Assembly (NCBI GenBank): GCA_964645815.1
Contig: CAZYCR010000003.1
Span: 1-36,930, forward strand
Reading direction: 5' to 3'
DNA length: 36,930 nt
Source: an uncultured Gammaproteobacteria bacterium
Lineage (GTDB): Bacteria > Patescibacteriota > Patescibacteriia > UBA9934
Shown in pieces: positions 16,675 to 31,500 of the stretch (position 1 is its first letter; each line of letters begins with the position of its first letter). The translations under genes and the position numbers were made by a program. The notes beneath the pieces are model-generated. The model did no database searches, was not told the origin of the DNA, and worked only from the letters and a program-made list of their open reading frames with translations.

Positions 16675-17013
16675 ATGAAACATCTAGATAAGTATTTGAA
16701 TCAAGTTATTCACGTCACGATTGATCGACCAAAAGGGAGTAAACATCCTAAGTTTGATTTTGAATATCCAATTAACTACGGCTATATGCCAGATACTATT
16801 TCTGGTGATGGAAAAGAGATCGATGCGTATATTCTGGGAGTAGAAGAGCCATTAAAACAATTTACAGGGAAGTGCATTGCCATTATCGAACGCCACGATG
16901 ACGATGACCCGAAATTAGTGTTAGCCCCAGAAGGGATGATGTTTTCTGATGAAGAAATTATCAAAGCAGTGCATTTTCAGGAACAATGGTTTGATTCATA
17001 TATAAAACGTTAA
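16675..17013 (+). CDS. short inorganic-pyrophosphatase-like protein
   Basis: YPINYGYMPDT, GDGKEIDAYILG and DDDDPKLVLAP parallel the family I PPase blocks YPxNYGFIPxT, DGDPLDVLVL and DExDxKIIAV. At 112 aa it is shorter than canonical PPase. Confidence 0.6.
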   Translation: MKHLDKYLNQVIHVTIDRPKGSKHPKFDFEYPINYGYMPDTISGDGKEIDAYILGVEEPLKQFTGKCIAIIERHDDDDPKLVLAPEGMMFSDEEIIKAVHFQEQWFDSYIKR

Positions 17014-17040
17014 AAACCGCCCTCGGGCGGTTTTTGCTTT
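17012..17040 (+). terminator. intrinsic terminator after the PPase-like gene
   Basis: aaaaaccgcc-ctcg-ggcggttttt, then gctttt. Confidence 0.8.
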
Positions 17041-17077
17041 TCTCAGCCAATTATATAACCTCGTTAAGCTATGAAAT

Positions 17078-17106
17078 TTGACAACTTTTCCATAGATTGA
17101 TATTAT
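17078..17106 (+). promoter_or_regulatory. promoter of the type I R-M operon (TTGACA-N17-TATTAT)
   Basis: -35 at 17078-17083, 17-nt spacer, -10 at 17101-17106. The ATG at 17118 is 11 nt after the -10. The promoter is flanked and overlapped by CTATGAAA repeats. Confidence 0.55.
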
Positions 17107-17117
17107 CTCGATAACCT

Positions 17118-18818
17118 ATGAAAAATGTCAATACCTACAAAATCAGTGACGTTGCCGAGATGTTCGGAATTCACGAAGACACTCTTCGTAATTGGGAAAA
17201 AGAGGGTCTCATTACCCCTATTCGTATTGGGACGCGTGGAGACCGCCGCTATACCCAAGAACATATAGATCAGATCGTTGAGAAGAAACTGGCGAAGATC
17301 GTCCGTCGGCTTGATGAAGAGCATGAGCTTGAGGAAAAAATGACTCTTGCTCAGCTAAAACAGTTCCTCTGGAAATCGGCCGACATTCTCCGTGGCCGCG
17401 TAGACGGATCGCAATATAAGGAATACATCTTTGCTCTCCTCTTCTATAAGCGGATGAGTGACATTTGGGATGAAGAGTACCGAACTATTCTGGATCAGTT
17501 TCATGATGAGGCGATCGCGAAGGCGGATTACAATCACCGCTTCAATGTGCCGGAAGATTGTCGTTGGGGTGTCATCGCCGACCAGTCTGAAAATATAGGC
17601 GCGAAACTCAATGAAATTTTCGATAAACTCACAAATGCAAATAGTCCGAAGCTGGACAAGATTTTCAACAAACTCGACTTCGCGGACAAGGATCGTTTTC
17701 CGAACGAAACTATGCAACGTTTGGTGAATCACTTCTCCAAGCATAATTTTGCAAATCAATATATCAGCTCGGATGTTCTTGGTGATGCGTATGAATATCT
17801 GATTGAGCAATTCGCAGCGGGTGCGGGAAAAAAAGGCGGTGAATTTTATACTCCACGCGAAATTGAGCGTGTTATCATGCATATTCTTGATCCTCACGAA
17901 AAGGATCATATTTACGACCCGACTGTTGGTTCCGGTGGATTTTTGCTTGAGGCGTACCATTATGTGCGCGATAAGTATGATGAATCAAAAGCACGTTCGC
18001 TCTACCTCTACGGACAGGAGTTCAACATGAGCACGTTTACAATTGCGCGTATTAACATGTTCCTTCACGGTCTCGACAGTGCAGATATTCGTATGGGCGA
18101 TACGCTTGCGGATCCAAAATTCCTCACGACAGAAAACCAATTGCAAACGTTCGATATCTGCGTTAGCAATTTCCCCTATTCTGTGAAGGAATGGGCGCAA
18201 GATACATTTGCCGCAAATAGGTTTGGTCGACTGGATGGTTACGAGATGCCGCCAGAGAAAAATGGCGATTATGCATTTATTCTGCATATCATTAAGTCGC
18301 TAAACGAAAATGGAAAAGCTGGGGTCGTCGTACCACACGGAGTCTTGTTTAAAGGTGACGCGCCTGGGCGGATTCGAAAACAGATTCTAACGAACGATCT
18401 CATAGAAGCTGTGATCGCGCTGCCTTCTAAGCTTTTTTACGGAGTGGGCATTCCTGTTGCCGTGCTCATCCTTAATAAAAACAAACCGGAAGTTCGCAAG
18501 AATAAGGTGATGATTATTGACGCGGAAAAGGATTATCAAGAAGGTAAAAAGCAAAACCGTCTCCGCATCAAAGATATCGAAAAAATCAGCACGGCGTTTC
18601 ATGACTTCAAAGACATTGAACGCTATGCTCGCGTCGTAGATTTGAAGGAAATTGCTGAGAACGATTACAACTTGAACATCCGCCGCTATGTCGACACGAG
18701 CGAACAAGAAGAAACAATTGATGTGAGTGCTGAGTGGAAAAAATTGCAAAAGATTGAAAAGGAGGCAAAAGAAATCGATGAGAAAGTTGAGAATTTTTTG
18801 AAGGGTCTGAAGTATTAA
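17118..18818 (+). CDS. hsdM: type I restriction-modification methyltransferase subunit HsdM with N-terminal MerR-type HTH extension
   Basis: The HsdM N-terminal block LWKSADILRG starts just after Met75. AdoMet motif DPTVGSGGFL. Catalytic motif NFPY (an NPPF/Y variant). The first ~70 aa, YKISDVAEMFGIHEDTLRNWEKEGLITPIR..GDRRYT, form a MerR-like HTH. Confidence 0.9.
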   Translation: MKNVNTYKISDVAEMFGIHEDTLRNWEKEGLITPIRIGTRGDRRYTQEHIDQIVEKKLAKIVRRLDEEHELEEKMTLAQLKQFLWKSADILRGRVDGSQYKEYIFALLFYKRMSDIWDEEYRTILDQFHDEAIAKADYNHRFNVPEDCRWGVIADQSENIGAKLNEIFDKLTNANSPKLDKIFNKLDFADKDRFPNETMQRLVNHFSKHNFANQYISSDVLGDAYEYLIEQFAAGAGKKGGEFYTPREIERVIMHILDPHEKDHIYDPTVGSGGFLLEAYHYVRDKYDESKARSLYLYGQEFNMSTFTIARINMFLHGLDSADIRMGDTLADPKFLTTENQLQTFDICVSNFPYSVKEWAQDTFAANRFGRLDGYEMPPEKNGDYAFILHIIKSLNENGKAGVVVPHGVLFKGDAPGRIRKQILTNDLIEAVIALPSKLFYGVGIPVAVLILNKNKPEVRKNKVMIIDAEKDYQEGKKQNRLRIKDIEKISTAFHDFKDIERYARVVDLKEIAENDYNLNIRRYVDTSEQEETIDVSAEWKKLQKIEKEAKEIDEKVENFLKGLKY

Positions 18819-18822
18819 ATTT

Positions 18823-19536
18823 ATGAAAGACAAATTAATCAAAGCATCAAAAGTACTAGCCAAGGTTGTCTTTGTTTCGGTAGGAGTAATTATGTTCTAC
18901 TCTGGAGTTTCTTTTTTAATCAAAACACTAAATTTAACTATTTCGACTCTTATCCTGGAATACATACAAACGCTAGTATGGCCTAGTGTTATTTTCGTTT
19001 TAATATTTACATTCAAAACCAATTTTTCCGGACTACTTGATAGGCTGGCGGAGTTTTCTCTGCCCGGTGGAGTTACTGGGAAAATAAACCCGCAGGCACA
19101 ACAGCAAGATACAAAACCCGAGGACTCTATAGATAAAAGCGCAGATTTTACTCAACTATTGACTGAAAAAGAAGAACAACTCGCTGAATTTGTAACTTCA
19201 AATGTGGGTCTTGAACAAAAAATAAGTACACTAGAAATTGAGTTAGACTTCGAGAGAATTTATAACATAATTTTTGCTAGCCAAATTGATCTATTGTTAA
19301 AGATGAATAATTTCGACAGTGTAGAGTTTTCTTATGTGGATGACCACTTCAACAAAGCACAACAATCCGCAATGAGTATGTTGAACGGTTGGAATACGAA
19401 ACAATACATTAACTTTCTCATTAATAATGGTCTTATTGAATATCCTGTTGGAACCAATCTTTTAAAGATTGCACTTAAGGGCAAGGTCTTTCTGAGTTAT
19501 CTTTCAGTTCGTAACTATAAAAAGTACGGAATATAA
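18823..19536 (+). CDS. two-TM membrane protein with coiled-coil linker and C-terminal globular domain, unknown function, embedded between hsdM and hsdS
   Basis: 237-aa ORF starting 4 nt after the hsdM stop. Hydrophobic helices lie at about aa 12-35 and 40-65. A Gln/Glu-rich segment follows, then a ~100-aa C-terminal domain. AT-richer than hsdM. Confidence 0.7.
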   Translation: MKDKLIKASKVLAKVVFVSVGVIMFYSGVSFLIKTLNLTISTLILEYIQTLVWPSVIFVLIFTFKTNFSGLLDRLAEFSLPGGVTGKINPQAQQQDTKPEDSIDKSADFTQLLTEKEEQLAEFVTSNVGLEQKISTLEIELDFERIYNIIFASQIDLLLKMNNFDSVEFSYVDDHFNKAQQSAMSMLNGWNTKQYINFLINNGLIEYPVGTNLLKIALKGKVFLSYLSVRNYKKYGI

Positions 19537-19539
19537 GTT

Positions 19540-20688
19540 ATGAGCGTAAAAACAGTACAACAAAATATTCCGAGTGGATGGAACGTCAAACTCCTGGGCA
19601 AAGTGATTGTTGAAAAAGATAAATCTATACTGAAAGTCGGTGATGCGGACAATAGCAGTGTCTATCCATTCTTTACTAGTGGTGAAAAAGTTTTAAGTCA
19701 TAGTAAGGCTCTGGTGTCTGGTCGAAATATTTATGTGGCCACAGGCGGTGTAGCCAATATTAAATTTTTTGATGGTGAAGCAAGTTATTCAACAGATACC
19801 TATTGTTTTACTTCAAAAGAAGATACAGAATTTATTTACTATGCCCTCCTCAATAATTTAAGAGATATAAACAAACATTTGTTTTCTGGTAGCGGCTTAA
19901 GGCACTTACAAAAAAAGGACTTCAAAAAGAAGGAAATACTTCTCCCGCCAATTACAGAGCAACAAAAGATCGCAGAGATTCTGAGCTCAGTTGATGACGA
20001 CATTCGTGCGACACAAGATGTTATCGATCAAAATGAGCAAATCAAAAAAGGTTTGATGCAGGATTTGTTTACAAAAGGAATTGGTCATACGAAGTTTAAG
20101 GACAGCGAGCTTGGAAAGATTCCAGAAGAGTGGCAGATGGTTCATCTTGAAGATGTGGCCCATTTTACTAATGGAAAAGGTCACGAAAAACATATTTCAA
20201 AGGGTGGGAAATATATCGTTGTCAACTCAAAATTCATCTCATCTAATGGAAATGTGATTAAATGTTCAGATAAGGCATTTTTACCACTTTCCAAAGAAGA
20301 GGTTGTTATGGTGATGAGCGATGTTCCGAATGGTCAGGCTTTGGCAAAATGCTTCTTTATCGATGAAGACGATACTTACACTTTAAATCAACGAATCTGT
20401 TCATTCCGTTTTAAAACTGGCCTACCACGTTTTTATTATCATTTACTTAATAGAAATGCTTACTTTTTGAAGTTTAATAATGGAACCGGGCAGACTAACT
20501 TGCGGAAACAGCAAGTGCTAGATTGCCCGATTGCGCTTCCCCCAGAAGGCGAACAAAGAGAAATTGTTGATTTTCTTGATGCATTGGAACACAAATTGGT
20601 GTCGTGGCAAGAAAAGAAGATCGTACTAGAAAATCTTAAGGATGGCCTAATGCAAGATTTATTGTCGGGTGAGGTGAGAGTTGAGTAA
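19540..20688 (+). CDS. hsdS: type I restriction-modification specificity subunit HsdS
   Basis: Two target-recognition domains, each followed by a conserved helical spacer: LPPITEQQKIAEILSSVDDDI and LPPEGEQREIVDFLDALEHKL. Confidence 0.88.
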   Translation: MSVKTVQQNIPSGWNVKLLGKVIVEKDKSILKVGDADNSSVYPFFTSGEKVLSHSKALVSGRNIYVATGGVANIKFFDGEASYSTDTYCFTSKEDTEFIYYALLNNLRDINKHLFSGSGLRHLQKKDFKKKEILLPPITEQQKIAEILSSVDDDIRATQDVIDQNEQIKKGLMQDLFTKGIGHTKFKDSELGKIPEEWQMVHLEDVAHFTNGKGHEKHISKGGKYIVVNSKFISSNGNVIKCSDKAFLPLSKEEVVMVMSDVPNGQALAKCFFIDEDDTYTLNQRICSFRFKTGLPRFYYHLLNRNAYFLKFNNGTGQTNLRKQQVLDCPIALPPEGEQREIVDFLDALEHKLVSWQEKKIVLENLKDGLMQDLLSGEVRVE

Positions 20689-20692
20689 GTAT

Positions 20693-21691
20693 ATGGCCAG
20701 AGGCACATACCAGAGAACTAAGTTAGCCAATCGATCGACTCATGCTTTTATTTCTTCGCTTAATGCCTTCAATAATGCAAGTGATGAATACCGAGTTGAA
20801 GCCGCTTTGTTCTTGATGGTCAATGCCGTCGAACTGCTTTCAAAAGCCCTTGTATTAAAACATGGAGGAAAAATTTACGAGAAAGGTACAAAGGAGAGAA
20901 CGATATCTGCAGAAGCGAGTATTTGGCTATTGTTTAATCAGTATCACAAGATTGATGAGCTTGAACATGGAGCTTTGCAACAACTAATCTCATTGAGAAA
21001 CGAGGCATCACACAATATTTTACCGAGTGTCAAGAATGATGTGCTGCACTATTTAATGTTCTCTGCGTTTAAAGTCTACCGTCGACTTATCAATGACAAT
21101 TTTCGTTCTCACAACAGAATTTTTAAAAAAAGCTTCTTGTCTATTTCAACAGATGAAAACACTACTTACGCCGATAGTGTTGAGGGGTTGTTGAGATCAA
21201 GTAAAAAGTCCGAATCCCAAAGACGGCTTCTCTACTTACTGGAAAGAGGTGTGTCGTATAAAGGAGACACATACATTACACAGGATGCTTTTGAGAAAAA
21301 TTTTAGAAAACAAAAGAACAAAAGGTTGATTAACAGAAGTAAATTAGGCAAATTTTTATCCGAGGCAGATCTTCTGAAGGTTGTATTTATTCAGGCACCT
21401 AAAAATCACACCATCAACATTGATATTGCTAAGGGAATAGGTTCTCAGAAAGAAGCCCTTACCGTCTTTACCAGGCGTACTGATATCAATAAAGATTACC
21501 CGTATATCCTGACGACGTTAGCTGAAAAGTTGGGAAAAGGAAGAAATGTAACCTTACAAGCAATTAAGCAGTTGAGCGTCAAAGGTGACAAGGAGCTACA
21601 TCAGGAAGTAAAAACTGGTAAACAAAGTTCCACACATAAATATTCTGATGCCGCCTTCCAGAAATTGAAAAATCATTTCGACAATCTATGA
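20693..21691 (+). CDS. HEPN-motif protein (putative RNase) embedded between hsdS and hsdR
   Basis: Rx4H motif in LISLRNEASHN after an all-helical N-terminal half. The ATG at 20693 is 4 nt after the hsdS stop; the TTG at 20681 is an alternative start. The stop overlaps the hsdR start (ATGA). Confidence 0.7.
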   Translation: MARGTYQRTKLANRSTHAFISSLNAFNNASDEYRVEAALFLMVNAVELLSKALVLKHGGKIYEKGTKERTISAEASIWLLFNQYHKIDELEHGALQQLISLRNEASHNILPSVKNDVLHYLMFSAFKVYRRLINDNFRSHNRIFKKSFLSISTDENTTYADSVEGLLRSSKKSESQRRLLYLLERGVSYKGDTYITQDAFEKNFRKQKNKRLINRSKLGKFLSEADLLKVVFIQAPKNHTINIDIAKGIGSQKEALTVFTRRTDINKDYPYILTTLAEKLGKGRNVTLQAIKQLSVKGDKELHQEVKTGKQSSTHKYSDAAFQKLKNHFDNL

Positions 21692-24606
21692 AATTCAACG
21701 AACAAGTAACAATTGAAAACCACATCATCAAATTCCTAAAAAAGGAACTTGGGTTTGAGTTTGTGAAACCGGAGGAGATGAAAGGGTTGCGCGAGTACGA
21801 GACGGAATATCTTGTGACATCATATCTACGAGACGCGATAGCGAAGATAAATGGCATTTCCGATGAAACGATCCTCGATTCGATCATTCGCGAGATTAAA
21901 AAAGTCGATACGAACCAGGGTTTTTTGGAGTTGATCCGCGGCGGAGTTGATTTAGTTGACGGCAAGACGCAAAAAACGCACACCTATCAAGTGATTGACT
22001 TTCAGAATCCGGAAAACAATCATTTTGTTGTTACTAACCAGTTTTATTTTGAAGGAGATACAGAAAACATTCGTCCGGATGTTTTGGTATTTGTAAATGG
22101 TATTCCGGTTGTGGATATTGAAGCAAAGTCGGCGACGGCTGCGCTCTCTGTCGATTACACAAAAGGCATCGGTCAGATTAAGCGTTATGAACGTGTTGCA
22201 AAAAGGCTGTTTATTCCAAACTGTTTTAACATCGCAACCGATGGCGTTCAGACAGTTTATGGAGCAACATTTGCACCGGAGCAATATTTCTTAACTTGGA
22301 AGGATGAAGAACTCGATAAAAAGTATGGCGAAGGAGCGGTAGAAGTTTCACTGGAGAATCTGCTTAGACCAGAAAATCTATTGGACATCATTGCGAACTT
22401 TATTGTTTTTGAACAAACAAAAAATGGTCTGGTTAAAAAGGTTGCTTATTATCAACAAAAACGAGCCACGAATAAAATTGTTGAACGAGTTGTAAAACGA
22501 GATGGAAAACGCGGACTTATATGGCACACACAAGGATCCGGAAAGACGCTGACCATGTTTTTCACGGCATGGAAACTTCGTTTTCATCAAGAATTGGCTA
22601 GTCCAAAAGTGTTTATTTTGGTTGATCGTATTGATTTGGACGATCAGGTGTATGACGAGTTCACCAATCATGGTGGGAAAAACATTATTCGAGTTACTTC
22701 CCGCAAACATCTTGAAGAAGTAATCGGCTCGGATGAGCGTGGAATTTTTATTTCAACAATTCAAAAATTCTCCGAGTTGGGGGCTGGTATTAAAAACCTC
22801 AAAGAGAATATTATCGTTCTTTCTGACGAAGCTCATCGTGGAGATGAAGGTGTTGCAGGGATTAACTTGCGCGACTCTCTCGGCAATGCTTTCCTTTTTG
22901 GCTTTACCGGAACACCGATTGATAAGACGACTCTAAATACACACAGAAATTATGGTGAGGCTGGTGAGCGGTATTTGGACTATTATTCGATCGAACAAGC
23001 TATTAAGGACGGAACCACATTGCCCGTCACCTACGAAGCACGTCTTTCAAAGTTTTTCATTGATGAAGAGCGTGCTGACGAACAGTTCGATGAGTTGACA
23101 ACCGAATTGGACGACAAGCAAAAAGAAGAATTACTGAAACGGCACACGCGAAAATCTCAGCTTACAAACTTGGATGCGCGGGTTGATGCGATTGTTCATG
23201 ATATTGTTGAGCACTTTAAAGCCTATATAGAACCGAATGGATTCAAGGCGCAGGTTGTTTGTAACGGAAAGGAAGCGGTAGTGATGTACAAAAAACATTT
23301 CGATAAGTTACTCGGAAGCGAGGCGACGGCTGTTGTGTTTTCTTCCGGGGACCCTAACAGCACGCCAGAAGAACAGAAAAAGTACGAAACAGCAAAGAAG
23401 GAACGCGATGAAATTATTCGCAACTTTAAGAACCCAGCACATCCTTTGAAGTTTATTATCGTAACAGACATGCTTTTGACGGGCTTCGATGCCCCGATTG
23501 AGCAGGTTATGTATTTGGATAAGCCTCTGCGCGACCATACATTACTCCAGGCCATTGCTCGCACGAACCGAGTTTATCCCAATAAGGTAGCTGGAAAGAT
23601 TATCGACTACTATGGAATCACAAAGAATCTTTATGATGCGCTTGATTTTAGCGAAGATATCGTTGATTCGGCGATGGTAGATATCGATGTCATGAAGGAA
23701 CGATTTGTTGAAGTTTTGCACCAGAACATGGATTTATTCGGTAAAGTGAATATCGAAGATCCTTCCATGGAAAATCTGCGTCACAATATCAAGATTTTTA
23801 TTGACAACGAAGATAAGCAGCAATTCTTTAAGAAAAAGTACAACCAACTGAAATCGCTCTACGAATTTCTTGCTCCGGATCCATTCTTGAAAGAATATAT
23901 TCGTCACTTTGAATGGCTCACAAGCTTTTACATTGCATTTCAAAAGGAATTTTTCTCTACTCCAGATGCACACTTGCTTGCGGGTTACGGCGAGAAAGTT
24001 AAAGAGATTATCCAAGACAATGTTGATTATGCGGGGATTACAAAGACATTCCGTGAGCTTAGGATTGATGATGTGGCGGCTATGAATAAGCTGGACGAAA
24101 TGGACGATGAAGAAAAGGCTCTAAATCTTGAAAAAATGTTAAAGCAAGAAATTTCTGAGCACATCGACCTTAACCCTGCCTTCCAGACCTTTAGCGAGCG
24201 TCTTCAAAAAATCCGGGAGGATTTTGAACAGAAACAAATGGACTTAGCGGAGCGCATCAAACACTATCAGGAGTTAATGAAGGATATTCAAGATGCTCGT
24301 AGCATCGCGGAAGAAAAAGGATACACGCTCTCAGAATATGGGCTTTACATGGTCAGTAAGGAATATTTGCCAGATGTTAGTGAGGAATTAATGCATGAGT
24401 TCATTAAAGAAATGGCGCAAAAAATTAAGGACGTTCTTGATAAAGGTTGGAAGGAGTCATCGAAGTACGATTTCTTTATCAAGGAAATCAAGCGAACGTT
24501 CCAGGAGCTTATTCTGAAGGATTACCGCGGTAAAATTACTATCGACATTGGAGAATTCCACGGCTATGTGAACCGACTTGTCGACATGGTTATTAAATAC
24601 TTCTAG
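21688..24606 (+). CDS. hsdR: type I restriction enzyme endonuclease/translocase subunit HsdR
   Basis: N-terminal PD-(D/E)XK block DVLVFVNGIPVVDIEAK. SF2 helicase motifs HTQGSGKTLTM, LSDEAHRG, FGFTGTP, QAIARTNR. Long helical C-terminus. Confidence 0.92.
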   Translation: MKFNEQVTIENHIIKFLKKELGFEFVKPEEMKGLREYETEYLVTSYLRDAIAKINGISDETILDSIIREIKKVDTNQGFLELIRGGVDLVDGKTQKTHTYQVIDFQNPENNHFVVTNQFYFEGDTENIRPDVLVFVNGIPVVDIEAKSATAALSVDYTKGIGQIKRYERVAKRLFIPNCFNIATDGVQTVYGATFAPEQYFLTWKDEELDKKYGEGAVEVSLENLLRPENLLDIIANFIVFEQTKNGLVKKVAYYQQKRATNKIVERVVKRDGKRGLIWHTQGSGKTLTMFFTAWKLRFHQELASPKVFILVDRIDLDDQVYDEFTNHGGKNIIRVTSRKHLEEVIGSDERGIFISTIQKFSELGAGIKNLKENIIVLSDEAHRGDEGVAGINLRDSLGNAFLFGFTGTPIDKTTLNTHRNYGEAGERYLDYYSIEQAIKDGTTLPVTYEARLSKFFIDEERADEQFDELTTELDDKQKEELLKRHTRKSQLTNLDARVDAIVHDIVEHFKAYIEPNGFKAQVVCNGKEAVVMYKKHFDKLLGSEATAVVFSSGDPNSTPEEQKKYETAKKERDEIIRNFKNPAHPLKFIIVTDMLLTGFDAPIEQVMYLDKPLRDHTLLQAIARTNRVYPNKVAGKIIDYYGITKNLYDALDFSEDIVDSAMVDIDVMKERFVEVLHQNMDLFGKVNIEDPSMENLRHNIKIFIDNEDKQQFFKKKYNQLKSLYEFLAPDPFLKEYIRHFEWLTSFYIAFQKEFFSTPDAHLLAGYGEKVKEIIQDNVDYAGITKTFRELRIDDVAAMNKLDEMDDEEKALNLEKMLKQEISEHIDLNPAFQTFSERLQKIREDFEQKQMDLAERIKHYQELMKDIQDARSIAEEKGYTLSEYGLYMVSKEYLPDVSEELMHEFIKEMAQKIKDVLDKGWKESSKYDFFIKEIKRTFQELILKDYRGKITIDIGEFHGYVNRLVDMVIKYF

Positions 24607-24609
24607 CCT

Positions 24610-25170
24610 ATGAAAAAGGAGGTGCAAATTGAAAATAGTACGCTCCAATACTCGATAAAAAAGAGTAAGAGGGCGAAGCGAATGAGAATCGCAGTTTATT
24701 GCGATTGTTCGATTGTTGTTACATCTCCTCAATCGATTTCAGAAACCCAAATTCAAAAATTTATTCGACTGAAATCGGATTGGATTGCAAAGAAGATTGC
24801 ATTCTTCTCCTCTTTGCAGATACACCCTGATATCGCTATTCAGTCAGAACAACATTACTTACAACATAAAGAGAAGGCGTTGAAGACAATCTCTCAGAGA
24901 GTTCAGAAGCTGAGTGAAAAGTATCAATTTGAACCTAATCAAATTCGAGTAAAAATGTTAAAAACTAAATGGGGTAGCTGTTCTGGGAAGAAGAATCTCA
25001 ATTTCAATTACAAGTTGATTTTTCTTAATCAAGATTTGCAAGATTACGTTATCATCCATGAACTATGTCATTTAAAAGAGTTGAATCATACAAAGAAATT
25101 TTGGGCACACGTTGCTTCATTTATACCTGAATATAAGAAGATAAAAAATAGACTACAAATTTTTAACTAA
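24610..25170 (+). CDS. DUF45/COG1451 (YgjP-like) zinc-dependent hydrolase
   Basis: TKWGSCS and HELCHLKELNH (HExxH plus a downstream His). Starts 3 nt after the hsdR stop. Confidence 0.8.
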   Translation: MKKEVQIENSTLQYSIKKSKRAKRMRIAVYCDCSIVVTSPQSISETQIQKFIRLKSDWIAKKIAFFSSLQIHPDIAIQSEQHYLQHKEKALKTISQRVQKLSEKYQFEPNQIRVKMLKTKWGSCSGKKNLNFNYKLIFLNQDLQDYVIIHELCHLKELNHTKKFWAHVASFIPEYKKIKNRLQIFN

Positions 25171-25171
25171 T

Positions 25172-25918
25172 ATGCCTTTTTATAATCCACACCGAGGAGC
25201 ATCCTTCAACTACGGCGGGAAGCAATGGAAACTTAGCCGGGGGAAGATTGATCTCTTTCTCCGCTGCCCGCGGTGTTTTTATTTGGACAACAAACTCGGC
25301 ACCAAACGACCTACGTGCCCACCGTATAATATTAATACCGCCGTAGACTCGCTCCTCAAACAAGAATTTGATGGCTATCGGGCCCGGGGGATGAAACACC
25401 CTTTGCAGAAAAAATATAAAATCGACGCCATCCCGGCTAAGCATGAGCAAATCGATGATTGGCGCGAGAATTTTAAGGGTGTTCAGTATTTACACCAGCC
25501 AACCGGATTATTGGTTACCGGCGCTATTGATGATTTGTGGCAGAGTAAAAAAGGTGAGTATATTGTGGTCGATTATAAGGCCACGGCCAAGTCTGATCCT
25601 GTAACTGAGCTGAATGATGATTGGCACGAAGGTTACAAACGTCAAATGGAAATTTATCAATGGTTATTGCGTCAAAATGGTCTTAAGGTTTCCAACACCG
25701 GTTATTTTGTTTATTGCACCGGTCGGCCGGACGAAAAAGCTTTTGACGGTAAAGTGGAATTTGACGTGCATTTGATTGCTTACACCGGTGACGACTCATG
25801 GGTCGAAAAGACTCTAGCTCAGATTAAAAAGACCCTGAGTAGCAAAAAAATACCTAAAGCTGCCGCAGATTGTGAGTATTGTCAGTATCGAGCCGCAGCC
25901 GCTCGGCACGAAAAATAA
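25172..25918 (+). CDS. Cas4/RecB-like PD-(D/E)XK nuclease with four terminal cysteines
   Basis: CPRCFY near the N-terminus, GAIDDLW, VVDYKA, QMEIYQ, and C-terminal CEYCQY. Starts 1 nt after the DUF45 stop. Confidence 0.7.
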   Translation: MPFYNPHRGASFNYGGKQWKLSRGKIDLFLRCPRCFYLDNKLGTKRPTCPPYNINTAVDSLLKQEFDGYRARGMKHPLQKKYKIDAIPAKHEQIDDWRENFKGVQYLHQPTGLLVTGAIDDLWQSKKGEYIVVDYKATAKSDPVTELNDDWHEGYKRQMEIYQWLLRQNGLKVSNTGYFVYCTGRPDEKAFDGKVEFDVHLIAYTGDDSWVEKTLAQIKKTLSSKKIPKAAADCEYCQYRAAAARHEK

Positions 25919-26860: not shown

Positions 26861-28588
26861 GTGAGAAATATTGAGCGAACCTGGCTTAAAAAGTTTTTAC
26901 GTGGAGCCGTTTTTAGTGCGGTAATTTTTGCGTTGTGGCAAACGCCAACGTTTTTTGTAGAAGCTCAAACCGCTCTTGAGCGAACCGGTGCAGCGGCTAG
27001 TTTTCAAGAAGTTGAATTGGCAACAGTTATCGGTCGAATCATTGCTGTCTTCTTGGGAGTCTTGGGCGTTGTCTTTTTGGGCCTAGTCATCTATGCCGGC
27101 GTTTTGTTCATGACTGCTGCCGGTCGCGATGATCGAGTAGAAAAAGCTAAGAAAGTATTAACCAGCGCGGTCATCGGACTTATTATCACCATGAGCGCTT
27201 ATTCCATTACAGCTTTTGTAGTGCAAAGAATCACTGGCCAAGGTCTTTTTGGCACTAGCGGCGGCGGTGGCACTAGCGGCGGAGTTTCGATTGAACCTTT
27301 CTCCGGCTCTTTGGGCCGAGGAATCCGTGACCACTATCCGGCTCGCAACGCCACTAACGTTGCCCGCAACACCAAAATTTTCGTGACCTTCTCGGAGCAA
27401 ATGAATATTGAATCATTTATCGACGGTTATGACGTTTCTGGTTCACCGCTCGATCTTTCGGACGACACACCAGCTTCTGGTCTCAACGACCGTTTGATCA
27501 AAATTTACCCAACCGCTCAAGGCGAATCGGCCGCTTTAACTGCAACTGATGTCAGCGTGACTTTCACCGATGACTTGAGAACTTTTGTTTTCACTCCACC
27601 AATCCTGGGATCGGCTACGACCAATGTTCAGTACACTGTTGCACTAGATGATCGTCTGGAAAGCGCAACCGGTAATTCTATACTCAATGACGGTGGCTAT
27701 ATTTGGTCTTTCACTGTGGGAACTGTTTTGGATACTGAACCGCCAACTGTCACTCGAGTTACACCGCTCGCTGGCGGTACTTATGATCGTAACATCACAG
27801 TGCAGTTAACTTTTTCCGAAGCGCTTGATCCAACTTCGGCCAGCGGTCGATACAATCCGGCCAATGGCGAAAATTTTGAAAGTATTACTGTAGCCGGAAC
27901 TAGCAGCGGCGCAGTTTCGGGTGAATATTTAATTAGCAATGAATACAAAACAATTACTTTCCAGCCATCGGCAGCCTGCGGCATAAATTCTTGCGGCAAT
28001 ACTTTGTATTGTTTGAGCTCGGCCGACAGTATGACAGTCACTGCTTTTGCTGCCACCAATGATTTGTTCCCGTACAACGGAATTGTTGACGTTAATGGTA
28101 ATGCTTTGGACGGCGACGCCGACGGTCAGGCTGGCGGAAATTATAGTTGGGGCTTTACCACCACTGGCGACGTTCGTTTGAGCGGACCGGAAATTACTTT
28201 GATTACACCTGACATTGAGTCAAGCAACATCAATCTCGATCAGGATGTGATGATTACTTTTGATTCAGAATTAATGAGCTCCACTGTTAGCACGGAAAAT
28301 TTTGTACTGACCTCAAAACCGGAGCATGAGATGTGGTTCCGCACCAGCCAAGAATCAACGGCCGACAGTACTACAGTCACAGTCAAACATGGCGTTTTCT
28401 TGGAATCAACGGCCGACCAGACTTATTTGTACGGCATGAGCGTTGGGGAAGGTGTGCAAGATATTTATCAAAACTGTTTCCGACCGGCCAAAGGTCCGGG
28501 TAAAAATGGAGGTAGTTGTGGTACCAGTGCCAGTGCACCGTTTTGTTGCAATGGCGTGCCGCAATCAACCGAGTGCCAACTTTTTTAA
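26861..28588 (+). CDS. secreted/surface protein with N-terminal VirB2/TrbC-like pilin module, Gly-rich linker and Ig-like domains
   Basis: 575-aa ORF with a GTG start. It has a signal-like N-terminus. Two hydrophobic helices flank MTAAGRDDRVEKAKKVL. A GGGGTSGG linker follows, then beta-rich repeats of the SbsA/Big type and a Cys-rich C-terminus. Confidence 0.8.
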   Translation: MRNIERTWLKKFLRGAVFSAVIFALWQTPTFFVEAQTALERTGAAASFQEVELATVIGRIIAVFLGVLGVVFLGLVIYAGVLFMTAAGRDDRVEKAKKVLTSAVIGLIITMSAYSITAFVVQRITGQGLFGTSGGGGTSGGVSIEPFSGSLGRGIRDHYPARNATNVARNTKIFVTFSEQMNIESFIDGYDVSGSPLDLSDDTPASGLNDRLIKIYPTAQGESAALTATDVSVTFTDDLRTFVFTPPILGSATTNVQYTVALDDRLESATGNSILNDGGYIWSFTVGTVLDTEPPTVTRVTPLAGGTYDRNITVQLTFSEALDPTSASGRYNPANGENFESITVAGTSSGAVSGEYLISNEYKTITFQPSAACGINSCGNTLYCLSSADSMTVTAFAATNDLFPYNGIVDVNGNALDGDADGQAGGNYSWGFTTTGDVRLSGPEITLITPDIESSNINLDQDVMITFDSELMSSTVSTENFVLTSKPEHEMWFRTSQESTADSTTVTVKHGVFLESTADQTYLYGMSVGEGVQDIYQNCFRPAKGPGKNGGSCGTSASAPFCCNGVPQSTECQLF

Positions 28589-28591
28589 AAC

Positions 28592-31500
28592 ATGACTAAG
28601 AAAATTCTCACAATTTCCTTGCTTTTCTTGGCCACACTGACCGTGGGTCTCATTTTGATGCATACCCCAACCTTAGCTCAAGTCGATACCGGGTTGGAGA
28701 CTGTGGGCACTGAAGCTGGTTTGGCTGGTGACAGTCTGGGATTGATTATTGGACGGATTATTCAAGTGATTCTGGGTATTTTAGGTGTTGTTCTTTTGGG
28801 CTTCATGATTTACGGCGGCTATCTCTGGATGACCGCAGCCGGCAGTGACGAAAAAGTGGCTCGGGCCAAAAAAGTTTTAGTTAATGCCACCATTGGTTTG
28901 ATTATCGCTTTAGCTTCCTTTGCTATCACCACTTATGTTATTTCTGCAGTCGGCGGTAATGCCGGCGGCGGAGGTGGCACAGGAGGCGGCGGAGGAGGAG
29001 GTAGTGGTATTGGCTTGGGTCATGGCTCAGTGGCGCTTTTTACGGTCACAGGTTTTCAGCCGGACGGTGAAGTACCAATCAGAAACATTGCTTTACAAAT
29101 AACTTTTAGTAAAACTGTCGATGAGACTACGATAGATGGCGCAGTTCATGTCAGGCGAGCCGACAGTGGGGAAGAGGTCGCTGGAAGTTTGGAGGTTAAT
29201 TATAATCGGGTCACTTTCCGACCAAGTACAGCTTGTCCGGCACCGGACGAGGATCGTTTCTGCTTTGATGAAAACACTACTTATAACGTTTTGGTTGACT
29301 CTTCGATCGAAAGTCAGACAGGTTTGCAACTTAATTGCGCTTCCGGCTGTAGTTCCAGCTTTACCAGTGGCAGCATTGTTGATACGGATAATCCTTCTGT
29401 CGAATTAACTTACCCGCAAAGTGGTGCCAGGATCGCAGCCGGCGCAGTAAGTTTGGTTGAAGCTATGGCCGAGGATGACGCCGGGCTTTCCGGTGTTGAT
29501 TTTCTGAGTGAAGAACAAATCTTTGATTCAGTTTTGGTAACTTCGGAAGAAACCGGATCTCCACTTTCGGCGATAGTCGAAAGTTATTGGGAAACCTCAG
29601 GATTGCCGGAAGACAATTATTATACTTTGCGAGTGACAGCCTTCGACTTGGCCGGTAATACTGATGAAGATTCTTTGCGTGTTAAGATCAACCCAAGTAG
29701 TTGCTCTAATGGTAGGCTTGATGCTGACTTGGGAGAGACCGGCCTTGATTGTGGCGGAAGTTGCGGCGAATGTGACGGTGCTACTTGTGAAATAAATGAC
29801 GCATGCTCAAGCGGACTTTGCTTAACTGGAACTTGTACCACTCTGCCAACCATTTTATCGGTTACTCCGTCTAATGGCGCACCGGGCACCTATGTAACAA
29901 TTTCTGGTACAGATTTTGGCAGCAGTGGTGGCTATGTTGAGTTTACTGCTATCGGCGGCGGAACAGTGGCTGCAACTATTCCATCTTGCAGCAATGGTTG
30001 GAGTGCCGCTGAGGTCGTGGTGGAAGTGCCAAATGAAGCGATTGATGGTCCAATTTCCCTAACTACCAGAAACAATTTATTTGACAGTACTGATAATGAA
30101 TTTGGACCGATCATAAATAATTTTGATGTTAATACCACTTTGCGACCATCAATTTGTCGTTTGTCGCCAACTGCCGGAGTTGCCGGGTCAACACTTAATC
30201 TTTTTGGTAAAAACTTTGGCGGTAGCCAAGGAACTTCGGATATTAGATTTAATAATGATTTGGCAGCAACTTATCCAGCCTGGAGTGATGGTTCAGCGAG
30301 CGCTGTTGTGCCAAATCTAGCAGCAACAAATTACGGCGTGGCCGTGAACGTCGGCGGCGTGCTTTCCAATAGTTTGAATTTTAATCTGGGATCAACTGGT
30401 GAGGGCGGTACAGGTGGCACTGGCGGTACTGGTACCAGCGATCAGCCAATTATTAGTTATTTAAGTCCTGGTGACGGCGGTGTTGGTCAATATGTGACAA
30501 TTGTTGGTTCAGGTTTTGGCGATTTGGTCGGTTCGGTCTTCTTTGAAAATCAGTTGACCGGCGAACTGGCTCAGGGCGCCATTGATTTTCCGGCACTTTG
30601 TTTGGATGATTTTTGGAATAATCAAGAAATTACCGTAATTGTCCCAGTAAATTACACAAATGGTTCAGCTGTTGATTTGGGGGCATATGAAGTTTATGTG
30701 GCTCGCCAAGATGGGGCAGTTTCTCCAAGAGCCAATTTCACTGTAACCAGTGCCGAGCCTTTACCAGGCCTTTGTCGAATTGTTCCAAATCGGGCAGAGA
30801 CTGGAACCTCGGTCACTTTGATTGGTGATGGTTTTGGAAACAATCCAGGATCGATAACTTTTTATAATGAAGCCGGGGCTTTGAATATTGCTTCTTGGCG
30901 AGATGGAGAAGTGGAAGTCAGCGTGCCGGCAGCGGCCAGCTCTGGTCCGGTTCATCTCACTTCTGCAGCCGGTGGAAGATCTAATGAGGTTAATTTTGAG
31001 GTAGGCGCCGCAATAGTTCCTGGTGAAGAAGTAACTGTTGGTGCGGCAGCTTATGCCTGGAGTTTTTCAACCGGTATTTTGCCACGTACACCAGAACTGG
31101 CGATCGCCTGTACTGACACCTTGATCAGCGGTGTACCAAATAGCCTGTTCACTGATGCAGTTTGCGTTAATGCTAATGTTTATGGCGAGTTTAGTGTGCT
31201 CATGCAGAGCGCGGCCTTGGCTTATGGAGAAGCTGTTGTGGTTGAGGAATGTTTAAATGATCGTTGTTCCAATACAACGCCTGTTCCGGGTTCGGCACAA
31301 ATCAGCAGCAGTACCGGAGCGACAACTTTCCGCTGGCAGCCAAGCTCCAGTTACAACGGAGGTCTTTTCAAGACTTCAACAAAATATCAAGTTCGGATTA
31401 CCACTGACGCTACTTCTGTCGCCGGAGTGCCTCTAGCTCAAGAAGTAGTTTGGGATTTCACCACCAGTGAAAGCAGTGACAATTGTACAGTTGAAAAAGT

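What the first reader, a model, noticed from the sequence alone, without database searches (positions are those of the whole stretch)
20681..21691. HEPN-motif protein in the PrrC position of a type I R-M locus
The 332-336-aa ORF between hsdS and hsdR carries a clean Rx4H HEPN signature (SLRNEASH) at the end of an all-helical N-terminal half. The polar Asn after the Arg is typical of HEPN RNases. The C-terminal half (about 150 aa, Lys-rich, with a possible wHTH around YILTTLAEKLGKGRNVTLQAIKQL) is unassigned.

Its stop overlaps the hsdR start (ATGA). In the E. coli prr locus the HEPN anticodon nuclease PrrC sits in exactly this position, between hsdS and hsdR. There it is kept latent by the R-M complex and fires when phage inhibits restriction.

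This protein lacks PrrC's ATPase domain, so it would be a different and possibly undescribed solution to the same logic.
Basis: partly seen in the sequence, partly recalled or inferred. Interest (0 to 1): 0.7.

Follow-up and report, generated by a model that had tools for sequence, protein, structure and literature searches.

The report
HEPN RNase gene inside type I R-M operon
A 332-residue protein encoded between hsdS and hsdR is a genuine HEPN-type predicted RNase, but it belongs to a family (Pfam DUF3644, PADLOC candidate PDC-S19) already described as embedded in restriction-modification operons, so it is a new member of a known kind of defence gene.

Summary
A 332-aa ORF (ATG 20693 to stop 21691) lies between hsdS and hsdR, overlaps the hsdR start (ATGA), and carries RNEASH at residues 102-107.

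An Rx4H motif occurs by chance in about half of shuffled copies. The evidence is its conservation: R102 and N103 are invariant and H107 is present in 31 of 32 homologs. E47-x3-K51 in helix 2 is also invariant.

The protein matches Pfam DUF3644 (57 bits, cut-off 27.6). A 2013 survey classed DUF3644 as the HEPN family "EC042_2821", noted as occurring in R-M operons. It also matches PADLOC candidate PDC-S19, which was derived from genes embedded in type I R-M, BREX and DISARM. The predicted structure's best PDB matches are HEPN domains.

Ten of 22 informative homolog loci have the gene in the same hsdS-hsdR slot. Twelve do not, including standalone copies among housekeeping genes.

The "undescribed" claim fails, and an obligate PrrC-like dependence on the R-M complex is weakened. 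The most likely function is a self-contained HEPN RNase defence effector with a C-terminal nucleic-acid-binding sensor. No activity, target or trigger has been tested. Interest is modest.

The parts
20693..21691 (+). CDS of the 332-aa DUF3644/PDC-S19 HEPN protein. An alternative TTG start at 20681 would give 336 aa.
   Evidence: ORF list and sequence. ATG start supported by the alignment of 32 homologs. Pfam DUF3644 E 2.3e-15, 57.1 bits against a cut-off of 27.6. PADLOC PDC-S19 E 2.7e-26.
20711..21133 (+). HEPN domain, about residues 7-147, a helical bundle.
   Evidence: AF2 model with pLDDT mostly 86-98. Foldseek PDB top hits are HEPN 2hsb (prob 1.00, TMt 0.77), HepT/SO_3166 (5yep, 7bxo, 6m6w) and 1ufb. 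PDB profile search top 3 are HepT (E 0.2). hhalign to the E. coli 042 DUF3644 protein gives prob 92%.
20831..20845 (+). E47-x3-K51 (ELLSK) in helix 2, the second conserved HEPN active-site element.
   Evidence: E47 and K51 are invariant in 32 homologs. They lie in helix 34-56. The Ex3[KR] motif in helix 2 is described as a HEPN feature in PMC3710099.
20996..21013 (+). R102-N-E-A-S-H107, the predicted catalytic Rx4H motif.
   Evidence: R102 and N103 invariant, H107 in 31 of 32 homologs. It lies at the C-terminal end of helix 89-107, before the loop to helix 115-136. That is where PMC3710099 places the motif, at the end of helix 3. It aligns with RDQAVH of the E. coli 042 protein.
21134..21484 (+). 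Family-specific middle region (residues ~148-264). It is basic and holds the invariant Y159 and L182-L183-x-R185-G186, followed by two strands.
   Evidence: Invariant columns. pLDDT is 70-91 in the full-length model but about 50 when modelled alone. Profile search of 1.84 billion representatives finds this part only in proteins of DUF3644 length or in fragments. No fold was assigned.
21485..21685 (+). C-terminal MerR/excisionase-like winged-helix module (residues ~265-331).
   Evidence: pLDDT 84-96. Foldseek hits are RacA DNA-binding domain (prob 0.9, rmsd ~2 A over 56 residues), NmlR/MtaN (MerR), BldC and Xis. All E-values are weak, at 0.66 or above. The same ~75-aa module occurs at the C-terminus of SLFN_AlbA_2 proteins. 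There are sub-threshold hits to Pfam PF18740 in 6 of 19 members.
17078..17106 (+). Near-consensus sigma-70-like promoter (TTGACA-17-TATTAT, with TG) 12 nt upstream of hsdM. It is the likely operon promoter.
   Evidence: Consensus scan, 11 of 12 matches. A bidirectional terminator at 17011-17036 precedes it. This is a pattern match only.
17118..18818 (+). hsdM, with an N-terminal MerR-type HTH.
   Evidence: Pfam N6_Mtase E 5e-109, HsdM_N, MerR_1.
18823..19536 (+). 237-aa embedded gene of unknown function in the variable hsdM-hsdS slot.
   Evidence: No family above threshold. No homolog in the related cassettes.
19540..20688 (+). hsdS.
   Evidence: Pfam Methylase_S, two stretches, E 5e-42.
21688..24606 (+). 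hsdR. Its start overlaps the HEPN gene's stop by 4 nt.
   Evidence: Pfam HSDR_N, SWI2_SNF2, ResIII, T1R_D3-like, T1RH-like_C. The overlap is read from the sequence.
24610..25170 (+). YgjP-like metallopeptidase. It follows hsdR in 8 of the related cassettes.
   Evidence: Pfam PF01863 E 1.4e-44. Conserved position in L001, L005, L015, L018, L026, L028 and L029.

Best explanation
The gene encodes a single-polypeptide defence effector of the DUF3644 (EC042_2821) HEPN family, the family that PADLOC lists as candidate PDC-S19.

Shown:
- The N-terminal ~145 residues have the HEPN fold and the full conserved active-site signature: E47-x3-K51 in helix 2 and R102-N-x3-H107 at the end of helix 3.
- The C-terminal half is basic and ends in a MerR/excisionase-like winged helix.
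- The gene is packed into a seven-gene string: hsdM, unknown, hsdS, HEPN, hsdR, YgjP-like, Cas4-like. Gaps or overlaps are 1-4 nt, and one strong promoter-like site precedes hsdM.
- Homologs occupy the same hsdS-hsdR slot in 10 of 22 informative loci.

Inferred from what is known of HEPN nucleases (PrrC, RloC, RNase L, HepT, ApeA, DARNA):
- Two HEPN domains dimerise to form a metal-independent RNase site that is held inactive in uninfected cells.
- The C-terminal half acts as sensor and auto-inhibitor, probably by binding a nucleic acid species that appears on phage or plasmid invasion.
- Once activated, the enzyme cuts cellular RNA, most likely tRNA anticodon loops. This stops translation and aborts the infection or clears the invader.

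Co-transcription with hsdMSR makes it a second layer behind restriction. Family members also live outside R-M loci, so I take its control to be built into the protein itself rather than supplied by HsdMSR.
For: - **Family:** Pfam DUF3644 at 57.1 bits against a cut-off of 27.6. Eight PDC-S19 models match, the best at E 2.7e-26, and one covers residues 9-326.
- **HEPN identity of DUF3644** and its association with R-M operons: PMC3710099.
- **Active-site conservation:**. The position of the motifs in the model matches the published HEPN description.
- **Fold:** the top Foldseek PDB hits are HEPN domains, and the top PDB profile hits are HepT.
- **Prototype:** hhalign to the E. coli 042 DUF3644 protein gives 92%, with the Rx4H motifs aligned.
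- **C-terminal wHTH:**
- **Basic composition:**
- **Operon packing:**
- **Context:** 10 of 22 loci are in the hsdS-hsdR slot. Others sit next to GmrSD, DNA methyltransferases, a PLD-SNF2 plus Eco57I-type system, recombinases or an Xre HTH, or among housekeeping genes.
- **Mobile elements:** N-terminal-domain relatives occur in Staphylococcus phages and Streptococcus satellite phages.
- **Precedents:** HEC-08 is DUF3644 plus Zn ribbons, and its defence is lost in the H128 mutant. The Ishtar proteins carry a DUF4145 or DUF3644 HEPN plus an alpha/beta C-domain and act as monogenic anti-plasmid systems. DARNA has an N-terminal HEPN plus a C-terminal ssDNA sensor and is a tRNA anticodon nuclease. 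ApeA is another example.
Against: - No activity, target or trigger has been measured for this protein or for any close homolog.
- All fold-search E-values are weak: 0.027 at best for HEPN and 0.66 for the wHTH.
- The middle region (148-264) has no assigned fold.
- The steady hsdS-hsdR placement with a 4-nt overlap onto hsdR in the Patescibacteria-type cassettes could mean functional coupling to the R-M enzyme. That would contradict the 'autonomous' part of this explanation.
- The close homologs with this C-terminal half for which a source or organism name was obtained all come from metagenomes or MAGs. Nothing is known about their phages.
Confidence: 0.6

Rival explanations
1. PrrC-like guard without an ATPase. 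The HEPN protein binds the HsdMSR complex, perhaps through its C-terminal half, and is kept latent by it. It fires as an RNase when a phage anti-restriction protein disables the R-M enzyme.
For: - It occupies the same slot as prrC (own knowledge for the gene order; for the embedding).
- The stop/start overlap with hsdR is conserved: 4 nt in the window, L018, L026 and L028, and 1 nt in L029.
- Ten loci have the gene in this slot, in two kinds of type I cassette.
- Within the Patescibacteria-type cassettes the HEPN gene is a constant component, while the hsdM-hsdS slot is variable.
Against: - Twelve of 22 informative loci lack hsdS/hsdR neighbours. One copy lies between rplB and rpsS, and one lies between ligA and a SpoU methylase gene. 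The protein can therefore be tolerated without HsdMSR.
- By contrast, PrrC is reported as almost exclusively embedded in type I R-M.
- There is no ABC ATPase domain, which in PrrC is the regulatory part.
Confidence: 0.2
2. Ishtar-like anti-plasmid factor. The HEPN RNase removes an RNA needed for replication of incoming plasmids or other mobile DNA, causing loss of the element rather than death of the cell.
For: The Ishtar proteins are monogenic. [quoted passage not shown] The window protein likewise has four strands and several helices in its last ~95 residues.
Against: The Ishtar sequences could not be obtained, so homology of the C-terminal domains is untested. Primer degradation is itself only the authors' favoured hypothesis. 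This rival differs from the best explanation only in target and outcome.
Confidence: 0.1
3. A non-catalytic accessory or regulator of the R-M system. The winged helix binds DNA and the protein controls hsdR expression or R-M assembly, with the HEPN domain serving only as a dimerisation or binding scaffold.
For: There is a C-terminal MerR/Xis-like wHTH, the gene sits directly upstream of and overlapping hsdR, and the protein is basic. HEPN domains that lack conserved polar residues are thought to be binding domains.
Against: The catalytic signature is strictly conserved (E47, K51, R102 and N103 invariant; H107 in 31 of 32), which is not expected of a scaffold. Homologs occur without any R-M genes. 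In the DUF3644 protein HEC-08 the motif histidine is needed for defence.
Confidence: 0.06
4. A selfish toxin or addiction module that stabilises the R-M cassette, or simply hitch-hikes in it, without a role in phage defence.
For: HEPN toxins such as HepT act in toxin-antitoxin pairs. The cassette has lower G+C than its flanks, 38-42% against 43-48%. Payne et al. note that embedding may give an embedded gene a selfish benefit.
Against: There is no MNT or other candidate antitoxin next to it in the window or in the related cassettes. A single-gene toxin with no antidote could not be maintained unless it were self-regulated, which is the best explanation.
Confidence: 0.04

Closest known systems
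DUF3644 (Pfam PF12358), the EC042_2821 HEPN family of Anantharaman et al. 2013 (PMC3710099)
   Same: - The match is above the Pfam threshold over profile positions 2-161 of 183.
- The Rx4H motif aligns with that of the E. coli 042 DUF3644 protein (hhalign 92%).
- The family was described as occurring in R-M operons and as fused to wHTH domains, among others.
   Different: - The E. coli 042 protein is 437 aa, with ~98 extra N-terminal residues and a C-terminal domain that the authors call REase-like.
- That protein lies next to an integrase at ssrA, not in a type I operon.
- The C-terminal halves are not detectably homologous: hhalign 1.6%, and PF18740 hits are only sub-threshold.
- Identity over the HEPN domain is only ~22%.
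PADLOC phage-defence candidate PDC-S19 (Payne et al. 2024 preprint, 10.1101/2024.01.29.577857)
   Same: Eight PDC-S19 HMMs match, the best at E 2.7e-26, and one covers nearly the full length (residues 9-326 against model positions 8-309 of 333). The PDC set was derived from genes embedded in BREX, DISARM and type I R-M systems, which is the context seen here.
   Different: The PDC systems are described as untested candidates. I found no text describing PDC-S19 itself. The strongest models match only the N-terminal ~130 residues.
PrrC anticodon nuclease of the E. coli prr locus (and RloC)
   Same: It is a HEPN RNase domain with Rx4H, encoded inside a type I R-M operon between hsdS and hsdR. It is a plausible second line of defence (gene order from own knowledge).
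   Different: - It has no ABC ATPase domain.
- The HEPN domain is N-terminal rather than C-terminal.
- It belongs to a different HEPN family.
- Homologs are often outside R-M loci, whereas PrrC is almost exclusively embedded.
HEC-08 (DUF3644 HEPN plus zinc ribbons; embedded in Hma systems)
   Same: It has an N-terminal DUF3644 HEPN domain whose structural matches include SO_3166/HepT (5YEP), as found here. It is a single-gene system found by embedding, and its motif histidine is required for defence.
   Different: The HEC-08 C-terminus is made of zinc-finger-like domains. The window protein has no cysteine at all. The host system is Hma rather than type I R-M.
Ishtar (Ist1/Ist2), DARNA (PD-T7-3) and ApeA: single-protein HEPN defences with a separate sensor domain
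   Same: All combine a HEPN effector with a non-catalytic domain of their own that controls it. DARNA has an N-terminal HEPN (R117x4H122) and a C-terminal domain that binds ssDNA, and it cuts tRNA anticodon loops. ApeA is ligand-activated. The Ishtar proteins carry a DUF4145 or DUF3644 HEPN.
   Different: DARNA's C-domain is an all-helical Pds5-like fold of ~300 aa, and ApeA belongs to a different HEPN family. None of the three is reported as a fixed component of a type I operon.

Membership tests
HEPN superfamily | Conserved Rx4-6H motif with a polar residue after the R, placed at the end of helix 3. | tested here: met
   R102-N-E-A-S-H107. R and N are invariant and H is present in 31 of 32 homologs. 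The motif lies at the end of helix 89-107, before the loop to helix 115-136. The criterion is taken from PMC3710099.
HEPN superfamily | Conserved acidic residue in helix 2, typically within Ex3[KR]. | tested here: met
   E47-L-L-S-K51. Both residues are invariant and lie in helix 34-56.
HEPN superfamily | Four-helix up-down bundle fold similar to solved HEPN domains. | tested here: met
   The Foldseek PDB top hit is 2hsb (HEPN, prob 1.00, TMt 0.77), followed by HepT/SO_3166, MntA-HepT complexes and 1ufb. The best E-value is only 0.027. The PDB profile search top 3 are HepT at E 0.2.
HEPN superfamily | Metal-independent RNase activity that depends on the R and H of the motif. | not testable with these tools
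   This needs biochemistry or genetics.
DUF3644 / EC042_2821 HEPN family | Match to Pfam PF12358 above the gathering score that covers the HEPN core, not only the AbiJ-NTD2-like part that the 2013 paper says contaminates the model. | tested here: met
   57.1 bits against a cut-off of 27.6, residues 11-164 on profile positions 2-161 of 183. The Rx4H motif aligns with that of the E. coli 042 DUF3644 protein.
DUF3644 / EC042_2821 HEPN family | C-terminal EC042_2821_CTD (REase-like, Pfam PF18740), as in the prototype. | tested here: inconclusive
   The window protein has no PF18740 hit. Six of 19 homolog C-halves hit it below threshold, with a best E of 2.7e-4. hhalign of the C-half against the E. 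coli protein gives 1.6%. The modelled fold of the last 65 residues is wHTH-like, not REase-like, and no conserved acidic catalytic set is seen.
PADLOC PDC-S19 | Match to the PDC-S19 HMMs. | tested here: met
   Eight models match, with E from 2.7e-26 to 1.1e-4. PDLC04953 covers residues 9-326. PADLOC's own thresholds were not available.
PrrC / RloC anticodon nucleases | N-terminal ABC-ATPase domain fused to a C-terminal HEPN nuclease. | tested here: not met
   No ATPase family appears in Pfam, NCBIfam or PADLOC, and the HEPN domain is N-terminal. The criterion comes from PMC3710099 Table 1.
PrrC / RloC anticodon nucleases | Latency imposed by the type I R-M complex and activation by an anti-restriction factor. 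| not testable with these tools
   Only indirect evidence is available: 12 of 22 homolog loci are outside type I operons.
HEC-08 | DUF3644 HEPN followed by C-terminal zinc-ribbon domains. | tested here: not met
   The protein contains no cysteine. The architecture is described.
Ishtar (Ist1/Ist2) | N-terminal HEPN (DUF4145 or DUF3644) plus a shared C-terminal domain of 5-7 strands and 3 helices, with an anti-plasmid phenotype. | not tested
   The HEPN part is compatible. The Ishtar sequences (XZW63086.1, MGQ1310977.1) could not be fetched, so the C-terminal domains were not compared.

The most novel reading that the evidence does not exclude
In the Patescibacteria-type cassette (MerR-hsdM, variable gene, hsdS, HEPN, hsdR, YgjP-like) the HEPN protein is a true subunit-like partner of the type I enzyme. 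It would be an ATPase-less functional analogue of PrrC, whose C-terminal half docks on HsdMSR or on the DNA the enzyme is bound to. Its RNase would be released when restriction is blocked or stalls. That would be a second, independently evolved 'guard of restriction' design.
Probability: 0.2. Interest if true: 0.6.

Novelty: new member of a known kind. Interest (0 to 1): 0.3.

Why it matters
The result gives a firm assignment to a gene that public records label only as hypothetical or DUF3644. It is a HEPN RNase with an intact active-site signature, carried as a fixed component of a type I R-M cassette in uncultivated Patescibacteria-type bacteria.

The family is on PADLOC's list of untested candidates, and no one has yet shown what triggers DUF3644 nucleases. 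The constant hsdS-hsdR placement in one lineage, set against standalone copies elsewhere, offers a natural comparison for one question: does embedding in an R-M operon mean functional coupling, as for PrrC, or only co-transfer? The finding does not reveal a new kind of system.

Tried and rejected
- **PDB sequence search with the single protein:** nothing relevant.
- **NCBIfam:** no family.
- **Papers mentioning PDC-S19, and supplements of the Payne preprint:** nothing under 'PDC-S19', 'S19', 'PF12358', 'DUF3644' or 'HEPN'.
- **Foldseek against BFVD viral structures:** no significant match, only small HTH/excisionase and HEPN hits.
- **Plasmid collection:** two partial N-terminal matches only.
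- **REase-like C-terminal half, as in EC042_2821:** not supported. hhalign gives 1.6%, the PF18740 hits are sub-threshold, and no conserved acidic catalytic set is present.
- **Modelling the C-terminal half alone:** this gave low confidence for residues 148-264, so that region stays unassigned.
- **The 237-aa neighbour as a conserved partner:** rejected, because it has no homolog in any related cassette.
- **Rx4H as significant on its own:** rejected, because it appears in 50% of shuffles.
- **Ishtar sequences:** they could not be retrieved, so that comparison was not made.
- **tRNA scan of the window:** none found.
Full report
**1. The observation**

The + strand carries an ORF from 20681 (TTG) or 20693 (ATG) to the TGA at 21689-21691. 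All 32 aligned homologs start at the position of the ATG with MA(R/K/T)..., so the likely product has 332 residues.

The gene follows hsdS (19540-20688) after 4 nt. Its stop overlaps the hsdR start in ATGA at 21688-21691. Pfam confirms the neighbours:
- hsdM at 17118-18818: N6_Mtase E 5e-109, HsdM_N, and an N-terminal MerR HTH.
- hsdS: Methylase_S, two stretches.
- hsdR at 21688-24606: HSDR_N, SWI2_SNF2, ResIII, T1R_D3-like, T1RH-like_C.

The string continues with a YgjP-like metallopeptidase (24610-25170) and a Cas4-like PD-(D/E)XK protein (25172-25918). The seven genes are separated by 1-4 nt or overlap. A bidirectional terminator-like hairpin (17011-17036) and a near-consensus promoter-like site (17078-17106) precede hsdM. 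Nothing comparable lies around the HEPN gene. Co-transcription is therefore likely, though this is inferred.

RNEASH is at residues 102-107 (nt 20996-21013). A bare Rx4H is not evidence, because half of the shuffled versions of this protein contain one. Conservation is the evidence. In 32 homologs that are 28-67% identical to the window protein, N27, E47, L48, K51, E74, Q96, Q97, S100, R102 and N103 are invariant. H107 is kept in 31 of the 32.

**2. What it is**

Pfam places residues 11-164 in DUF3644 (PF12358) at 57.1 bits, against a gathering score of 27.6. Anantharaman et al. 2013 (PMC3710099) identified DUF3644 as a HEPN family. [quoted passage not shown] The same paper gives the HEPN hallmarks:
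- an Rx4-6H motif with a polar residue (N, D or H) after the R;
- that motif placed at the end of helix 3;
- an acidic residue in helix 2, usually within Ex3[KR].

The AlphaFold2 model (mean pLDDT 82, and 86-98 over most of the N-terminal half) has helices at 7-27, 34-56, 73-83, 89-107 and 115-136. E47-x3-K51 therefore lies in helix 2, and R102...H107 lies at the end of the helix that precedes the last core helix. Every hallmark is met.

Foldseek against the PDB returns HEPN domains first: 2hsb (prob 1.00, TM 0.77 on the target), then HepT/SO_3166 (5yep, 7bxo, 6m6w) and 1ufb. The E-values are weak, 0.027 at best. A sequence profile of the family also picks HepT as its top three PDB hits, at E 0.2.

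I located the DUF3644 protein of E. coli 042 (WP_001222856.1, 437 aa, beside an integrase at ssrA). This is presumably EC042_2821. It aligns to the family profile with 92% probability, and its RDQAVH falls on RNEASH. The paper warns that the Pfam model also contains AbiJ-NTD2 sequences. That caveat does not apply here, because the match includes the catalytic motif.

The protein also matches eight PADLOC PDC-S19 models, the best at E 2.7e-26. One of them covers residues 9-326. According to Payne et al. (bioRxiv 10.1101/2024.01.29.577857), the 145 PDC candidates were derived from genes embedded in BREX, DISARM and type I R-M systems, and they are untested.

**3. The C-terminal half**

Residues 148-332 are basic (pI 9.7) and contain no cysteine. 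That rules out the zinc ribbons of HEC-08.

Modelled alone, only the last ~65 residues are confident, with pLDDT 84-96. Their best PDB fold matches are the RacA DNA-binding domain (prob ~0.9, rmsd ~2 A over 56 residues), MerR-family regulators, BldC and excisionases. E-values are again weak.

A profile of the C-terminal half was searched against 1.84 billion representative proteins and found 193 hits. The whole half occurs only in proteins of DUF3644 length or in fragments; 26 representatives score below E 1e-30. The last ~75 residues also occur at the C-terminus of other proteins, several of them with Schlafen AlbA_2 domains.

Some of these proteins, and 6 of 19 family members, give sub-threshold hits to Pfam PF18740, the 'EC042_2821-like REase-like domain'. 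A direct profile comparison of the C-half with the E. coli protein is not significant, at 1.6%. I see no conserved acidic catalytic set.

I therefore treat the terminal module as a nucleic-acid-binding winged helix. The link to the prototype's C-terminal domain stays open. Residues 148-264, which hold the invariant Y159 and LL-x-RG (182-186), remain unassigned.

**4. Genomic context of homologs**

Thirty-seven close homologs were found. The few that carry an organism name are Patescibacteria: Moraniibacteriota, Taylorbacteria and Paceibacterota. Ten further representative clusters were looked up; all come from metagenomic or MAG data, and only one carries an organism name (Candidatus Moranbacteria).

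I obtained informative neighbourhoods for 22 loci, counting the window.

*In the hsdS-X-hsdR slot (10 loci):*
- the window itself;
- L005 (61% identity);
- L026 (58%);
- L029, L028, L018 and L015 (45-47%);
- L017 (40%);
- L001 (38%, Eubacteriales);
- L021-23 (32%).

In the Patescibacteria-type cassettes hsdM and hsdR are 58-68% identical to the window's, and the HEPN protein 45-61%. The 4-nt overlap with hsdR recurs, and a YgjP-like gene follows hsdR.

The hsdM-hsdS slot is variable. It holds DUF3800, PemK, KilA-N, Bro-N, PRiA4_ORF3 or unknown genes, and the window's 237-aa gene has no homolog in the other loci.

*Outside any type I operon (12 loci):*
- between rplB and rpsS in a ribosomal protein operon (L013/L014);
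- between ligA and a SpoU methylase gene (L002);
- after an Xre-type HTH in a mobile-element region (L016);
- beside a large serine recombinase;
- after a GmrSD protein and a T5orf172-helicase (L007);
- after two DNA methyltransferases (L008);
- after a PLD-SNF2 protein and an Eco57I-type methylase (L009, L012);
- beside a MUG113 protein (L004);
- three others (L006, L020, L027).

N-terminal-domain relatives also occur in Staphylococcus phages and Streptococcus satellite phages.

The link to type I R-M is strong, and the position is fixed whenever the link is present. It is not obligatory. Payne et al. report PrrC as almost exclusively embedded in type I R-M.

**5. Mechanism**

*Shown:* a HEPN domain with an intact, conserved active-site signature; a basic C-terminal half ending in a wHTH-like module; tight operonic packing with hsdMSR; and frequent but non-obligate embedding.

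*Inferred from family knowledge.* HEPN nucleases are metal-independent RNases that use the R and H of the motif, shown by mutagenesis for RNase L, PrrC and RloC. They usually act as dimers with a composite site. They are held inactive until a signal arrives.

Known modes of control include:
- protein partners (PrrC);
- RNA antitoxins (AbiF);
- covalent modification (HepT);
- ligands bound by a separate domain.

ApeA binds deoxydinucleotides, and DARNA binds ssDNA through its C-terminal domain and then cuts tRNA anticodon loops. Two other DUF3644-type proteins act as single genes. HEC-08 loses defence when its motif histidine is mutated. The Ishtar proteins clear plasmid RP4.

I therefore favour a self-contained effector (confidence 0.6). 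The HEPN dimer is the RNase. The C-terminal half senses an invasion-associated nucleic acid or protein and relieves auto-inhibition. RNA cleavage, most likely of tRNA, then halts translation.

The PrrC-like guard model is kept as the main rival (0.2). The constant slot and the overlap with hsdR argue for it. The twelve R-M-free loci and the missing ATPase argue against it.

Lesser rivals are an Ishtar-like anti-plasmid role (0.1), a non-catalytic regulator of hsdR (0.06) and a selfish toxin (0.04).

**6. Comparison and novelty**

The protein is a member of the HEPN superfamily and of DUF3644, with all sequence and fold criteria met, and it matches PDC-S19. It is not a PrrC/RloC member, because it has no ABC ATPase. 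It is not HEC-08-like in architecture, because it has no zinc ribbons. Membership of the Ishtar family could not be tested.

The family, its HEPN nature and its association with R-M operons are all published. What this window adds is a well-conserved Patescibacteria-type composite cassette in which the HEPN gene is a fixed component, together with a C-terminal half that is specific to a small subfamily known almost only from metagenomes.

I rate it a new member of a known kind, with interest 0.3. The most novel reading not excluded is an ATPase-less functional analogue of PrrC that is physically coupled to the type I enzyme (probability about 0.2).

Noticed in passing
window 18823-19536 (+): A 237-aa gene lies between hsdM and hsdS. 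It has two N-terminal hydrophobic helices and only weak C-terminal winged-helix hints (HTH_45 E 0.0046, Sso10a E 1.9e-4). It has no homolog in the related cassettes. In those, this slot holds different genes: DUF3800, PemK, KilA-N, Bro-N, PRiA4_ORF3 or unknowns. The hsdM-hsdS slot looks like a variable cargo site.
   Followed up: partly
window 17118-17290 (+), N-terminus of hsdM: HsdM carries an N-terminal MerR-type HTH at residues 7-53 (MerR_1 E 5e-13). The same fusion is annotated in the related cassettes L015, L018, L026 and L028.
   Followed up: partly
window 24610-25918 (+): A YgjP-like metallopeptidase and a Cas4-like PD-(D/E)XK protein follow hsdR with gaps of 3 and 1 nt. The YgjP-like gene follows hsdR in most related cassettes. 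A 59%-identical Cas4-like gene sits about 150-180 nt downstream of hsdR in L021/L023, although hsdM and hsdR there are only 26-34% identical to the window's.
   Followed up: partly
window ~17000-25500: The R-M cassette has lower G+C (38-42%) than its flanks (43-50%). This is consistent with horizontal acquisition.
   Followed up: no
window ~28590-36930 (+): One open reading frame of more than 2780 codons runs from about 28.6 kb off the end of the window. It starts with a signal-peptide-like or TM-like segment. It follows a 575-aa ORF (26861-28588) that also starts with hydrophobic segments. Neither was analysed.
   Followed up: no
L013 7062-9023 and L014 5290-6956: In a Candidatus Taylorbacteria genome, a 44%-identical homolog of the HEPN gene sits inside the ribosomal protein operon between rplB and rpsS, together with a pilin-like N_methyl gene. 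This is seen in two independent assemblies.
   Followed up: no
window 17011-17106: A strong bidirectional terminator-like hairpin (11-bp stem, 17011-17036) is followed by a near-consensus sigma-70-like promoter with an extended -10 TG (17078-17106), just upstream of hsdM.
   Followed up: no
P0097, P0104, P0108, P0129 (proteins): The ~75-residue C-terminal winged-helix-like module of the HEPN protein also ends proteins whose N-terminus is a Schlafen AlbA_2 domain. It is therefore a mobile module shared between different putative defence proteins.
   Followed up: partly
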